Origin: Escherichia coli
GTDB lineage: Bacteria; Pseudomonadota; Gammaproteobacteria; Enterobacterales; Enterobacteriaceae
DNA length: 33,301 bases
Reading direction: 5' to 3' (one strand)
NCBI RefSeq assembly: GCF_002854065.1
Contig: NZ_CP024149.1
Shown here piece by piece: positions 15,001 through 21,000 of this stretch. Numbering within the stretch: position 1 is the stretch's first letter; the number at the start of each line of letters is the position of its first letter. Position numbers: made by a program.

Positions 15001-18000
15001 TTGTTGAAGGATAAGGATAAAGACAAAAAAGATGAACATGGTGGCATTGGTACGCCAGCTACCCGCGCAGCCATTCTGGAAACGCTGAAGAAAAGAAACT
15101 ATATCACGCTGGAAAAAGGGAAACTTATTCCTACTGATACCGGATATGCGCTTATTGATGCCCTGCCTGGTATAGCGGTTAATCCTGATATGACAGCATT
15201 ATGGTCTGAAAAGCAGGCTGCCATAGAAAATGGCGACCTGACGGTTGAACAGTTTATTAATGATCTGTACGGTGAACTGACAGGCATGATTTCTGATGTT
15301 GACCTGGGCGAGATGAAGATTGAACCCGCTGCGCCAGCAGGGCAGTTTCAACGCCTGGACTCTCCCTGCCCTTCCTGTGGTAAACATATTGTTATCAGGC
15401 CGAAAGGTTATTTCTGTACCGGATGTGAATTTAAAATCTGGAGTGAGTTTTCTGGTAAGAAAATCACCCAGGCACAGGCCGAAAAACTGGTTAAATCAGG
15501 GAAAACCGATTTGATTAAGGGATTTAAAAAGAAAAGTGGTGGAACGTATGATACAGTTCTTGTCCTTGAGGATAAGAAAACAGGGAAGCTGGGTTTTCCG
15601 GCAAGGGCTAAGAAGTGAAAACAAAGCAGGAATGGCTTTTTCAGTTAAGAAAATGTACATCAAGAGATACTCTTGAAAAAGTTATTGAGATTAACCGTTA
15701 CAAACTGCCTTTATCAGAATCAGAGGCATTTTATTCTGCCGCAGATCATCGCCGAGCAGAACTGGTGATGAATAAACTTTATGATAAGGTGCCTTCCGGC
15801 GTCTGGAAGTACGTACACTAAATAAGAGGATTAATTATATGAGCGAACTGACTAAAGAAGATGAATACGGCATTATCAGCCGTACTATGATGAATATTCG
15901 TTCATTGCGTGTTTTTGCCCGTGAGATTGATTTTGAGCAGTTGCTCGAAATGCAGGAAAAGCTCAACGTTGTTATTGAAGAACGTCGTGAAGATGCTGAA
16001 CGTGAAGCGGCTGAACGCCAGGAACTTGAAGCCAAACGTCAGCAGGCCATTGAATACATCATATCTTTAGGTCTTGATCCCGAATCACTCCTTGCTCCTG
16101 TAACAGCAGATACAGTAAAAACCAGGCGGAAAGCCAAAGGCGGAGTAAGAAAGGCTAAATACCGCTTTAAGGATGAAAATGGCGAGATCAGAGAATGGTC
16201 TGGTAATGGCAAGCGTCCGCTTGCTTTACAGAAGCTGCTTGATGAGGGGCATTTCATGGAAGATTTCCTCATTGAGAAAACTAAGCCGGAACAGGCAGAA
16301 TAACCCGCCAGGTATACATCACACAGGGCACTGTTGCAAATAGTCGGTGGTGATAAACTTATCATCCCCTTTTGCTGATGGAGCTGCACATGAACCCATT
16401 CAAAGGCCGGCATTTTCAGCGTGACATCATTCTGTGGGCCGTACGCTGGTACTGCAAATACGGCATCAGTTACCGTGAGCTGCAGGAGATGCTGGCTGAA
16501 CGCGGAGTGAATGTCGATCACTCCACGATTTACCGCTGGGTTCAGCGTTATGCGCCTGAAATGGAAAAACGGCTGCGCTGGTACTGGCGTAACCCTTCCG
16601 ATCTTTGCCCGTGGCACATGGATGAAACCTACGTGAAGGTCAATGGCCGCTGGGCGTATCTGTACCGGGCCGTCGACAGCCGGGGCCGCACTGTCGATTT
16701 TTATCTCTCCTCCCGTCGTAACAGCAAAGCTGCATACCGGTTTCTGGGTAAAATCCTCAACAACGTGAAGAAGTGGCAGATCCCGCGATTCATCAACACG
16801 GATAAAGCGCCCGCCTATGGTCGCGCGCTTGCTCTGCTCAAACGCGAAGGCCGGTGCCCGTCTGACGTTGAACACCGACAGATTAAGTACCGGAACAACG
16901 TGATTGAATGCGATCATGGCAAACTGAAACGGATAATCGGCGCCACGCTGGGATTTAAATCCATGAAGACGGCTTACGCCACCATCAAAGGTATTGAGGT
17001 GATGCGTGCACTACGCAAAGGCCAGGCCTCAGCATTTTATTATGGTGATCCCCTGGGCGAAATGCGCCTGGTAAGCAGAGTTTTTGAAATGTAAGGCCTT
17101 TGAATAAGACAAAAGGCTGCCTCATCGCTAACTTTGCAACAGTGCCTCACACAGACATACACATAGGTATGTCTGTGTGACATACCTATGTACAGTGCCA
17201 GATGGCGTTGCTACGTGAAAAATAACCTACCCTACCCCTGCTTTTTTCGCAGATTTTACGTAGCACACCGTTGCTATAGCATTCATCTAAAAAGCTGAAT
17301 GTCCTTTTCTGTCGCTGTTGCATTTTAATTCACTGAAAAATATTGAGTAATGAAAATGCCGGTAACGCGTCAAGCTGTTGGCCAACGCGACAGGCAGTAT
17401 TGGAAGCAACAAAAAAAATGAAAGAAAAATCCCTCAAATGAAGGAGAAAAAACGGAACTACAGCCGAACGACAGGCACAAAAAAACCCGACTGGTAATCG
17501 GGCTTTTTTGCGTTTTCCAGTCTTGAGTTGGTGGCTCTGACCGGAGAAGGTTACTCTACACCTAACGTTTACATTTTATTCACTATGGTGCTGTAAAGCA
17601 ACTAAATGTGGTTAAGGAACCACATTTAGTGGTGTAACGGGTGTTTTGTGTAGCGTATAATCAGTCAGTTAGTCATGTAGTTGGCTTGCAATCCTGCTGT
17701 TCCCGTATCTGCGGGTATGAACGATTTTAAAGTCCTGGCTGGATAAACAGGTGGTGCTGTATTCGGTGCTCTGGCAGGAGGAGGTCACTCTACACCTAAC
17801 AATGCGAGAGAGCCGTTGTGACAGGCAGTGTATGAGCAAGCAACGGTGATTTCCTCCAGTTTTACTGGAGAAACGGATGATTAATATGTTAATCATCGTT
17901 CTCAGAGCTGTGGTCGCCGTTGCAAACGCGCTGATTGCAGTTCTGGAACTGATCCGCCAATTCATCGATTGATGACAACGGAAACGTAACTAAGGGCAGG

Positions 18001-21000
18001 AAGTGAACCGCTTCCTGCCCTTTAACAAAAAAGGAGGATTTATGGATTTTATGAGCATTTTGGGGCGCTGTTTACTTCTTCCTTTCCCTGTTGCGATGTT
18101 TGTCGGTTGCCTGTTTCCTGGCATCGATGATCGCTTATCCGGAATGCTTATGAGTGTTGCTGTGGGATGTTTATCGTGGTATGTCACCAGACCGAAGAAC
18201 CGACAGACAAAGGCCGCGTAAGTGGCCTTTAATTGGGATACCCTTTAGTTACAACATTCTAATAGCTCATTCCATCCTCCGCTCATCCAGCAAACATAAC
18301 CTCCCTGCCCCTCCCCACTACAGAAAGTGGCGCGCCCCGCCCGTACGGGCGGAATCTAATCGCTTAATTTTGAATGTTGTAACTAAACATACTCATTGCT
18401 GTATTGCCACAAGGTTTCGCAGCAAGGGAGGATACCGAAAGTAACGCTGTCACTTTTGCTTTCAAGTGACCAACCAACGGGTACATCACACTGACATACA
18501 ATAATGTATTTCTTCATGATGTACATCATTGTAATTCATTGTGACATACACTATAGTATGTCCATGTGACATACGCATGCGTACATCACATAGAAATACA
18601 CATGAGTAAATCACTGTGACATACAAGGGGTACTATGATTATCGTAATCGGTGGTGATAAAGGCGGTACAGGTAAATCACATCTGGCAACCAACTTAACT
18701 GTTTGCCTCTCACAACAGGGAAAGAGAACGGGGCTTGTTGAAACAGACCTGAATGGCTCGACCAAAAAATGGAATAAACGCAGAGAACAGGCCGGATTAC
18801 CGCCCGTCGCATTAAATGAAGCCTATGGCGACATCAGTGCCAAAATAACAAAAATGGCAGATGTAGCAGAAATCCTCATTATAGATACTGCCGGATATGA
18901 CAGCACGGAGTTCAGAACTGCACTAAAAGTTGCAGACATTGTGATTGTCCCGATCGACCCGCTTGCCCAGGTGGAAGCAGACAGTCTTCAGACTGTGACA
19001 AAAATTGTCAGGGATGCGCAAAAAATAAATCCCAGGCTGGCTGCACATGTGCTCCTGTATAAATGCCAGCCAAATACGTTCAGTGAACAACAAGAATTAA
19101 GAGACTCTCTCAACAGCCATGATTACTGGCTTAAACCAATGAAAAGCACGGTTTCTTTTCTCCGGGCCTTTGTAAGAGCAATGAATCAGGGAATGGGGGT
19201 TCACGAGTTAAAAAGTAATGTTAGCGGTGCCAGCCAGGCAAAAGCACAAATCGAACTCTTGCTGAAAGAACTGGAACTGTAAATCATAGTGACATACACT
19301 AATGTACATCATCATGATATACATTAGTGTGAAACAATCAGATTAGAAGGTACATCATGGCAAAGCTGGAACTACCAGAACTAGAACAAAACCAGGAAGT
19401 GAACGCCACAAAATTTGTTCAGGACGCAGGAAAACGCCCCACAGAGAACAAAACAAAACTGGCTTCATTCCGCATACCGAATGAATTGCTTGAATTCATT
19501 GATAACGAATCAAAAAGACTGCATCGTCCCAAGACAAAAATAATCAAAGCAGCATTACTGGCTTATCAGGATCTGGACGAAAACGAACTCATTAATTTGT
19601 GGTTCAGAGCTGACAGAAATGATTAATCATAGCAAGTGGCCCAATAAACTCTTTATCATTTTCTTTTAGATACTTATCTGAATGTACTAACTTCATCACT
19701 TTTAAATGTAGTTGTGATTCATTTTTAGTTACTCTTGCAATAAAATACCCTTGTACAGTTGTTGCACGGGTATTTAGGAGCACTAGATGAGCCTTATCGA
19801 TTTAAGTTTATCAGGATTATCAGAACCAGGAACAAAACTTATTGAAAAAATAAGTGATGCTATTGGTGTGCTTTATGAACCTACAAGAATCAGGAAAAAA
19901 GCGAAGGCTGAAGCTGAAGCTAAACGCACAGAGCTAATTTCTAGGTTAGAGCTTGAGGGAATAGAAAAACGGGCAGTTGAGCGTTTTCTCAAACGTGAAA
20001 CGAAACGACAGGAAAACATTGAAAATATAACAATGCAAGCAGCACAAAGTCTATCTGAGAGTGATAATGTTTCTGATATTGACGAAGATTGGATAGAGGC
20101 TTTCTTCAGGGAGTGTGAGGATATTAGTGACGAACAAATGCAAATGCTTTGGGGAAGAATTTTATCCGAAGAAGCAAAGTCAAAAGGTTCGTTTAGTCGT
20201 AGAACCTTAAAACTATTATCCACTATAAGCAAAGAAGAAGCGAACCTTATTACTTATTTTGGAAAGTTTGTTTGGCAGGCAAACAAACTCACTCCAATTT
20301 TATTTACCGATGAGAATGGAGATACTGAAGGTATAACTTTCGATAAACTTTCGGTTTTAGACTCCTTAGGCGTTATTCAACAAGGCATTGGTTATAGTTT
20401 AAGATACAAATTATAAATACTCTCAAGTGTATATTCAGTATGGGATTGCGCAATGATTGCCTAATAAAATTTCTGAAATATTTCTGTATCGCATAATTTT
20501 TTATATCAGATAAATTGTACTGGATTTCTTAAAAAATTGCAGTATAATTGCCGCAATTATCCCACCGTTTATTTTTTAAGTAGTTTCTCATGATGCAGCA
20601 TACTTCTGTGTGGTACCGACGCTCGGTCAGTCCGTTTGTTCTTGTGGCGAGTGTTGCCGTTTTCTTGACCGCGACCGCCAATCTTACCTTTTTTGATAAA
20701 ATCAGCCAAACCTATCCCATCGCGGACAATCTCGGCTTTGTGCTGACGATCGCTGTCGTGCTCTTTGGCGCGATGCTACTGATCACCACGCTGTTATCAT
20801 CGTATCGCTATGTGCTAAAGCCTGTGTTGATTTTGCTATTAATCATGGGCGCGGTGACCAGTTATTTTACTGACACTTATGGCACGGTCTATGATACGAC
20901 CATGCTCCAAAATGCCCTACAGACCGACCAAGCCGAGACCAAGGATCTATTAAACGCAGCGTTTATCATGCGTATCATTGGTTTGGGTGTGCTACCAAGT

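What the first reader, a model, noticed from the sequence alone, without database searches (positions are those of the whole stretch)
16304..19345. Three arrays of GACATAC / GTACATCA motifs; IS26 is inserted inside one of them
Seen in sequence: heptamer-type motifs in both orientations cluster upstream of parA (18465..18630), between parA and the RHH gene (19283..19345), and downstream of hns on both sides of IS26 (16308..16326 and 17147..17195, including the palindrome ATAGGTATGTC-TGTGTG-GACATACCTAT). Inference: these are binding sites for the RHH partition protein (centromere and operator). The array next to hns is either a second centromere-like site or a silencing site, and IS26 has split it with a clean 8-bp target duplication.
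Basis: partly seen in the sequence, partly recalled or inferred. Interest (0 to 1): 0.4.

Follow-up and report, generated by a model that had tools for sequence, protein, structure and literature searches.

The report
Partition-protein binding arrays of IncX4 plasmid
The repeated GACATAC/GTAnnTC motifs are real and are most likely the docking sites (centromere and operator) for the small DNA-binding partner of the plasmid's ParA segregation ATPase. This is an ordinary kind of plasmid-stability element, but I found no description of it for the IncX4 plasmids that spread colistin resistance.

Summary
The window is a complete IncX4 mcr-1 plasmid. GACATAC occurs 13 times (2.5 expected) and GTACATCA 8 times (0.9 expected), mostly in three clusters.

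All three clusters share a strict 25-bp unit, GTAnnTC-N5-GACATAC-N6:
- P1, 18481-18630: six units, ending 5 bp before the parA ATG.
- P2, 19279-19328: two units between parA and the gene for an 89-aa ribbon-helix-helix (RHH) protein.
- P3: two units just after hns.

IS26 (16327-17146) sits in the outermost P3 unit with the 8-bp duplication TCACACAG. IS26-free plasmids carry the exact empty site.

In five relatives about 80% identical in DNA, motif positions are invariant while spacers drift. Homologous ParA/RHH cassettes on IncX3, IncX1, IncFII and a variant IncX4 carry different motifs, and different predicted DNA-reading strands, in the same two positions. This supports a ParF/ParG-like (type Ib) partition cassette whose RHH protein binds P1 and P2.

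P3 is specific to this lineage: three complete related plasmids lack it. It looks dispensable and its role is unresolved. Nothing supports a silencing role. Binding and stabilisation remain untested. This is a new member of a known kind, of modest interest.

The parts
18481..18630 (.). P1: six 25-bp units (GTAnnTC-N5-GACATAC-N6), i.e. 12 heptamers in alternating orientation. It ends 5 bp before the parA ATG. Proposed main centromere plus parA operator.
   Evidence: conservation
18529..18557 (+). Promoter-like site inside P1 (TTGTAA-17-TATAGT); candidate parA promoter that bound protein would occlude.
   Evidence: TTGTAATTC is retained at the same aligned position in 4 of 6 plasmids and one unit further on in the other two. 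Inference only.
18635..19282 (+). parA: 215-aa Walker-type ATPase with the deviant Walker A KGGTGKS, ParF-like.
19279..19328 (.). P2: two 25-bp units in the parA-RHH gap. The first heptamer, GTAAATC, overlaps the parA stop codon. A degenerate tail runs to about 19356.
19357..19626 (+). Gene for the 89-aa RHH protein: disordered N-terminal tail, ribbon KLASFRIP, two helices and an extra C-terminal helix. Proposed centromere-binding protein.
16314..16326 (.). P3, left fragment: the degenerate heptamer ATACATC plus the left copy of the target duplication.
16327..17146 (+). IS26: 820 bp, 14-bp terminal inverted repeats, transposase at 16390-17094.
   Evidence: (I14)
16319..16326 (.). Target-site duplication TCACACAG, left copy.
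17147..17154 (.). Target-site duplication TCACACAG, right copy.
17147..17193 (.). P3, right fragment: GACATAC-N6-GTATGTC-N5-GACATAC-N4-GTACAGT, forming two overlapping perfect palindromes.
   Evidence: (I13, I23)
15839..16303 (+). hns (context): its stop codon lies 10 bp before P3.

Best explanation
The region holds a type Ib (ParF/ParG-like) plasmid partition cassette. The 215-aa ParA ATPase is followed by an 89-aa ribbon-helix-helix protein. Dimers of that protein bind the heptamers GTAnnTC/GACATAC, which alternate in orientation at 12/13-bp centre spacing on a 25-bp period.

Proposed roles:
- P1 (12 heptamers) directly upstream of parA would be coated cooperatively to form the partition complex. 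That complex recruits ParA and activates its ATPase. Because promoter-like hexamers lie inside the array, it would also repress parA.
- P2 (4 heptamers), in the parA-RHH gap, is a second conserved site of the same complex. It may also act as an operator for an internal promoter of the RHH gene.
- P3 (4-5 heptamers after hns) is a satellite of the same array found only in this lineage. The protein probably binds it, and it may act as an auxiliary or pairing site, but it is dispensable.
- IS26 inserted at the edge of P3 in the ancestor of most mcr-1 IncX4 plasmids without destroying its three perfect heptamers.

Shown here: the arrays, their register, their conservation, their co-variation with the protein, the protein folds and the IS26 empty site.

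Inferred, not shown: binding, cooperativity, repression and centromere activity.
For: Enrichment and exclusivity of the motif. A strict 25-bp register.

ParA aligns end to end with ParF of TP228, 4dzz, E 3e-11.

The RHH assignment rests on four results:
- Pfam RHH_1 scores 18.2 bits, just under its cut-off.
- A profile of 21 homologues hits CopG over its whole length.
- The AlphaFold model has pLDDT of about 90 over residues 41-60.
- Its Foldseek matches are dominated by RHH proteins: CopG, Arc, AmrZ, antitoxins, ParG.

Across six plasmids about 80% identical in DNA, 60 of 66 motif positions are invariant against 14 of 84 spacer positions in P1. In P2 the figures are 19 of 22 against 12 of 28.

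The RHH protein is 83-97% identical and its ribbon KLASFRIP is unchanged in all plasmids with this motif. TGACATAC is absent from loci whose RHH has another ribbon.

Homologous cassettes have other motifs in the same two places, and sometimes also after the RHH gene:
- GTGTATnnnTACACAC in an IncX4 variant.
- TAAAGAYA in IncX3 and IncX1.
- GTAAATAC on an IncFII plasmid.
- GTAATAC, TGTATGTACA and GTATATA in metagenomic relatives.

Published type Ib systems work this way: TP228 parH/OF (PMC3130281), pSM19035 (PMC9499535) and pB171 parC1/parC2 (PMC4270457).
Against: - No experiment exists on this protein or these sites.
- The RHH assignment is sub-threshold by single-sequence Pfam, and the profile hit has E 0.026.
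- Co-variation is at the level of the whole cassette, so on its own it cannot separate the RHH protein from ParA as the binder. That step relies on knowledge that ParF-like ATPases lack a sequence-specific DNA-binding domain.
- The conservation test is not independent of how the motif positions were defined, and the six sequences are related.
- Promoter calls are weak (9 of 12 matches) and arise partly from the motif itself.
- P3 is absent from L006 and from three complete relatives, so it cannot be a required part of the system.
Confidence: 0.8

Rival explanations
1. P3 is a functional second centromere or pairing site. It would work like parC2 of pB171, or like the extra parS sites of pSM19035, and contribute measurably to segregation or to looping with P1.
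For: It has three perfect heptamers in the correct 12/13-bp register, identical in layout to the centre of P1. It holds 4-5 sites, and pSM19035 needs at least 4 contiguous sites for ParA activation (PMC9499535). Multi-array layouts occur in the family, for example arrays after the RHH gene in L002, L010 and L017. The only substitution seen in a variant falls in a spacer.
Against: L006 and three complete plasmids with the same motif and protein lack it. About three quarters of the lineage carry IS26 at its edge and are epidemiologically successful. The lineage is nearly clonal, so its conservation carries no information.
Confidence: 0.3
2. P3 is a non-functional relic: a fragment of a P1-like array left by recombination at the variable junction after hns.
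For: The hns 3' end and the segment after it are a recombination junction, since L002 and L006 diverge exactly there. P3 is confined to one near-clonal lineage. No promoter-like site lies next to it.
Against: All three core heptamers are perfect and the spacing is intact. The protein would still bind such a site, so some effect such as titration or pairing is likely even if it is not selected.
Confidence: 0.4
3. The arrays are operators only, for autoregulation, and the true centromere lies elsewhere. Alternatively, the hns-proximal array is an H-NS/Hha silencing site.
For: Promoter-like hexamers lie within P1 and P2. P3 is next to hns.
Against: No other cluster of this motif exists on the plasmid. 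In TP228 both the operator and the distal boxes act as centromeres (PMC3130281). P3 is not AT-rich: GC is 0.44-0.45, against 0.32-0.37 in P1. Its motif is that of the par arrays, and nothing links it to H-NS.
Confidence: 0.1
4. The arrays are replication iterons, or encode a structured RNA.
For: They are regularly spaced repeats in non-coding DNA.
Against: The iterons of this replicon are six 22-bp repeats (ACCGAGGAAGCTCTCATGTTTA) at 25577-25708, next to the initiator gene. No Rfam family matches the arrays; only noise-level hits appear. The conservation pattern consists of short motifs in both orientations, not paired helices.
Confidence: 0.02

Closest known systems
TP228 ParF-ParG-parH/OF (type Ib partition)
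   Same: A small ParF-like ATPase; this is the best solved-structure match and it covers the full length. It is followed by a small RHH protein with a flexible N-terminal tail. An array of about 150 bp of short degenerate motifs in both orientations lies directly upstream of the ATPase gene, serving as centromere plus operator (PMC3130281).
   Different: ParG sites are 4-bp ACTC boxes with 4-bp AT-rich spacers. Here the sites are 7-bp motifs at 12/13-bp centre spacing. TP228 has no array between parF and parG. The RHH protein has no sequence-level match to ParG; ParG appears only at rank 24 in the fold search.
pSM19035 delta-omega with dispersed parS heptad arrays
   Same: An RHH centromere-binding protein recognises 7-bp non-palindromic repeats in direct and inverted orientation. 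Separate arrays lie in front of the ATPase gene, in front of the RHH gene and at a third distant site. The arrays overlap promoters (PMC9499535).
   Different: The omega heptads (WATCACW) are contiguous, whereas here they are separated by 5-6 bp. The host is a Firmicute. The proteins are unrelated in sequence. The third site in pSM19035 controls a known promoter (copS), whereas P3 has no recognisable promoter.
pB171 par2 (parC1-parA-parB-parC2)
   Same: A type Ib cassette with more than one array of ParB-binding repeats around the par genes (PMC4270457).
   Different: parC2 lies after parB. Here the second array lies between parA and the RHH gene, and the third lies 1.3 kb upstream (IS26-free distance) beyond a toxin-antitoxin locus.
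'IS26-parA-mcr-1-pap2' arrangement of IncX4 mcr-1 plasmids
   Same: The same IS26 copy, described as typical of these plasmids (PMC9204285). The window is 100% identical to many such plasmids.
   Different: The papers I found do not note that the insertion lies in a repeat array, nor do they give the TCACACAG duplication.

Membership tests
Type Ib ParA/RHH-ParB partition cassette | Small (about 200-230 aa) Walker-type ParA without an N-terminal DNA-binding domain, carrying the deviant Walker A KGGxxGK[ST] | tested here: met
   215 aa. KGGTGKS is at residues 9-15. It aligns to ParF 4dzz over residues 7-213, E 3.4e-11. Pfam families CbiA, MipZ, AAA_31 and ParA match.
Type Ib ParA/RHH-ParB partition cassette | The adjacent downstream gene encodes a small ribbon-helix-helix DNA-binding protein | tested here: met
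   RHH_1 scores 18.2 bits, below the 20.5 cut-off. The family profile hits CopG over its full length, E 0.026. The model has helices at 42-55 and 59-72 preceded by an extended FRIP segment. The top fold matches are RHH proteins. Support is moderate rather than strong.
Type Ib ParA/RHH-ParB partition cassette | Cis-acting array of short repeats next to the genes (centromere/operator) | tested here: met
   P1 and P2. They are conserved in relatives and replaced by other motifs in homologous cassettes.
Type Ib ParA/RHH-ParB partition cassette | The RHH protein binds the repeats, and the cassette stabilises a plasmid | not testable with these tools
   Needs gel-shift or footprinting assays and plasmid-loss assays.
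TP228 parH-type centromere | Tetramer boxes (ACTC-like) separated by 4-bp AT-rich spacers, giving an 8-bp period | tested here: not met
   The period is 25 bp, split 12+13, with 7-bp motifs.
pSM19035 omega-type parS | Contiguous 7-bp heptads with no gaps | tested here: not met
   The heptamers are separated by 5-6 bp.
IS26 (IS6 family) simple insertion | 820-bp element, 14-bp terminal inverted repeats GGCACTGTTGCAAA, 8-bp target duplication, and an empty site in relatives | tested here: met
   (I14)

The most novel reading that the evidence does not exclude
The RHH protein is an omega-like global regulator and architectural factor rather than only a centromere binder. In this reading P3 and P1 bracket the AgrB/DqlB addiction locus and a conserved recombinase-type inverted repeat. 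Protein-mediated pairing of the two arrays would loop out this 1.3-kb segment, or block read-through from the hns-hha-topB operon. Partition-complex assembly would then be coupled to toxin-antitoxin expression, and the IS26 insertion would have altered that coupling in the epidemic mcr-1 lineage.
Probability: 0.08. Interest if true: 0.5.

Novelty: new member of a known kind. Interest (0 to 1): 0.3.

Why it matters
IncX4 plasmids (mcr-1) and IncX3 plasmids (NDM, OXA-181) are major vehicles of last-line antibiotic resistance. In the literature I could search, their centromere and centromere-binding protein are undescribed. RefSeq calls the RHH gene 'hypothetical' and parA 'MipZ'. One IncX6 paper states that ParB and parC could not be located (PMC5868456).

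Defining the cis sites gives three practical things:
- Targets for incompatibility-based plasmid curing.
- A basis for partition-incompatibility typing among IncX sublineages, which carry at least four different motif and ribbon pairs.
- A set of natural ribbon and motif pairs for studying RHH specificity.

As biology it is an expected kind of element.

Tried and rejected
- Chance: rejected by shuffles and by the weight-matrix scan.
- Iterons: rejected. The real iterons are a different 22-bp repeat at 25577-25708.
- Structured RNA: no Rfam family matches the arrays.
- H-NS silencing site: no support. P3 is not AT-rich and carries the par motif.
- P3 as an operator: no promoter-like hexamers next to it in the IS26-free sequence.
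- TP228-like 8-bp box geometry and omega-like contiguous heptads: both tested and not met.
- Direct sequence homology of the RHH protein to solved structures: none found. Only the family profile and the fold search gave RHH hits.
- L005 and the RHH region of L006 are error-prone assemblies with frameshifted genes. I used them only for the array DNA.
- Literature searches for an IncX or IncX4 centromere found nothing specific.
- The candidate parA promoter is not at the same aligned unit in all six relatives, so I kept it as a low-confidence inference.
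Full report
**What the window is.** The 33,301-bp window is a complete IncX4 plasmid carrying mcr-1. It is 100% identical over the tested 3.9 kb to many 33.3-kb IncX4 plasmids. The RefSeq annotation of one of them gives the local gene order topB-hha-hns, IS26, dqlB, 'MipZ' ATPase, hypothetical 89-aa protein, DUF2806, mcr-1.

**The observation.** GACATAC occurs 13 times against 2.46 expected, and GTACATCA 8 times against 0.91 expected. No shuffle reached either count. 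Written in a 25-bp register, all three clusters show the same unit, GTAnnTC-N5-GACATAC-N6. This amounts to heptamers in alternating orientation, since GACATAC is the reverse complement of GTATGTC, with centre spacing of 12 and 13 bp.

- P1 is six units at 18481-18630 and ends 5 bp before the parA ATG.
- P2 is two units at 19279-19328. Its first heptamer overlaps the parA stop codon.
- P3, with IS26 removed, is two units starting 10 bp after the hns stop.

Self-similarity of P1 peaks sharply at lag 25, at 62%. Tandem Repeats Finder reports the 25-bp arrays independently. A weight matrix built from P1 alone finds P2 and P3 and nothing else on the plasmid; the next best score is 10.3 against 19-26 for the arrays. 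The 19-bp composite pattern gives 19 hits against 0.26 expected, all within the three arrays.

**IS26.** The element spans 16327-17146 (820 bp) and has perfect 14-bp terminal inverted repeats (I14). It is flanked by TCACACAG on both sides. Joining the flanks and removing one copy of the duplication gives a sequence found at 100% identity in IS26-free IncX4 plasmids. Of about 320 PLSDB records with this flank at 95% identity or more, 76 have the uninterrupted site.

The insertion lies between the outermost, already degenerate heptamer (ATACATC) and the first GACATAC. Because of the duplication, the three perfect heptamers remain contiguous on the right. By coincidence the IS26 end plus the duplication (GTGCCTCACACAGACATAC) again matches the 19-bp unit with one mismatch. 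[quoted passage not shown]

**The proteins.** The 215-aa ATPase has the deviant Walker A KGGTGKS. Its best solved relative is ParF of TP228, aligned over the full length at E 3e-11. It is therefore a type Ib ParA, not MipZ.

The 89-aa protein scores just under the Pfam RHH_1 cut-off and has no single-sequence match in the PDB. A profile of 21 homologues aligns to the whole of CopG at E 0.026. The AlphaFold model has confident helices at 42-55 and 59-72 after an extended FRIP segment, plus a third helix. Its Foldseek hits are almost all RHH proteins: CopG, CdbA, TacA, Arc, AmrZ and ParG. Homologues share an N-terminal tail motif, [RK]F[IV]xxGxxRP. It recalls ParG's functional tail, but I did not test this.

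**Comparative evidence that the arrays are functional.** Five relatives about 80% identical in DNA keep P1 (six units) and P2 (two to three units). They are two assembly contigs recovered through their RHH proteins (L006 from an NCBI genome assembly, L007 from an ENA metagenome assembly) and three complete plasmids from E. coli, Citrobacter freundii and Klebsiella pneumoniae.

In the six-way alignments, 60 of 66 motif positions are invariant against 14 of 84 spacer positions in P1. In P2 the figures are 19 of 22 against 12 of 28. Two caveats apply: the sequences are related, and the motif positions were defined from the window. The RHH protein is 83-97% identical across these plasmids and its ribbon KLASFRIP is unchanged.

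Homologous ParA/RHH cassettes at 19-45% RHH identity have different ribbons and different repeated motifs in the same positions.

| Source | Motif | Ribbon |
|---|---|---|
| IncX4 variant (L002) | GTGTATnnnTACACAC | TRINLTMT |
| IncX3 and IncX1 (L008, L009) | TAAAGAYA | KLMNFRLP / KLMNFRLS |
| IncFII, C. koseri (L010) | GTAAATAC | VSRTYRFN |
| Metagenomic relatives (L016-L018) | GTAATAC, TGTATGTACA, GTATATA | not examined |

TGACATAC is absent from every locus with a different ribbon. An array in the parA-RHH gap is therefore a hallmark of this cassette family, and some members add an array after the RHH gene.

Co-variation is at the level of the cassette and cannot alone exclude ParA as the binder. 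That step rests on established knowledge that ParF-like ATPases bind DNA non-specifically and that the RHH ribbon reads bases.

**How it most likely works.** This is inferred by analogy with TP228 (PMC3130281) and pSM19035 (PMC9499535). RHH dimers would load one per heptamer and coat P1 and P2 cooperatively. The complex would recruit ParA through the N-terminal tail and stimulate its ATPase, positioning plasmids over the nucleoid. The same occupancy would repress transcription, because promoter-like hexamers lie inside the arrays: TTGTAA-17-TATAGT at 18529-18557 and GTGACA-18-CATGAT in P2. These promoter calls are weak, and the P1 candidate is not at the same aligned unit in all relatives.

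The geometry differs from both the 8-bp box period of parH and the contiguous heptads of omega. It puts successive sites about 1.2 helical turns apart, so bound dimers would spiral around the DNA.

**P3.** It has the same layout as the centre of P1, so the protein should bind it. However, L006 and three complete plasmids with the same motif lack any third array. The segment after hns is a recombination junction. P3 occurs only in the near-clonal mcr-1-type backbone. No promoter-like site adjoins it, and most of the lineage thrives with IS26 at its edge.

I therefore rate it a dispensable satellite, either an auxiliary or pairing site or a relic. I found nothing to support an H-NS silencing role; it is not AT-rich.

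**Comparison with what is known, and novelty.** This is a type Ib partition cassette. The defining sequence features are met, but binding and stabilisation cannot be tested here. It is not a parH-type or an omega-type centromere by site geometry.

Searches found no description of an IncX centromere or centromere-binding protein. An IncX6 paper states that ParB and parC could not be located. It is a new member of a known kind, with practical value for plasmid curing and incompatibility work on IncX resistance plasmids.

Noticed in passing
window 17477-17565 (-), 17877-17972 (+), 17534-17566 and 17768-17800: AgrB antisense RNA (Rfam RF02891, 58.7 bits against a gathering score of 40) and the 31-aa DinQ-like toxin gene dqlB lie between P3 and P1. 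A 33-nt direct repeat (88%) probably marks the AgrB/dqlB-mRNA pairing region. This toxin-antitoxin type was validated on IncX3 plasmids (PMC12317039).
   Followed up: partly
window 17205-17275; L002 1741-1810 and 2161-2180; L006 3255-3300: A conserved long inverted repeat, GTTGCTACGTGAAAAATA...ATTTTACGTAGCA, lies immediately after P3. In the IncX4 variant L002 it precedes a tyrosine recombinase gene whose 5' end repeats the arm sequence. It may be a multimer-resolution site that has lost its recombinase in this lineage.
   Followed up: no
window 18244-18262 and 18369-18387: A 19-nt inverted repeat (95%), TTTAGTTACAACATTCTAA / TTTGAATGTTGTAACTAAA, encloses about 106 nt with a C-rich stretch, just upstream of P1. 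It is present at the same place in L005 and L006, and one arm is present in L002. There is no Rfam match and its function is unknown.
   Followed up: partly
window 17142-17160: The right end of IS26 plus the target duplication (GTGCCTCACACAGACATAC) matches the 19-bp array unit with one mismatch, as did the original sequence. The interrupted P3 therefore still reads as two full units.
   Followed up: yes
window 25577-25708: Six near-perfect 22-bp direct repeats (ACCGAGGAAGCTCTCATGTTTA, 96%) lie next to the replication initiator gene. These are the replicon's iterons and are unrelated to the par motif.
   Followed up: partly
L005 3820-3850 (ENA contig ERZ1714329:contig_1659): A noisy assembly of a closely related IS26-free plasmid has a deletion joining window positions about 17303 and about 18190. 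It removes the AgrB/dqlB locus and brings P3 closer to P1.
   Followed up: no
window 18635-19282 and 19357-19626: RefSeq annotates the ParF-like ATPase as 'division plane positioning ATPase MipZ' and the RHH partner as 'hypothetical protein' on hundreds of IncX plasmids. About 1,800 PLSDB plasmids encode a homologue of the RHH protein.
   Followed up: partly
window 18003-18221: An unannotated 72-aa ORF with hydrophobic segments lies between dqlB and the 19-nt inverted repeat. It has no Pfam match, and a single GACATAC lies inside it at 18179-18185.
   Followed up: no
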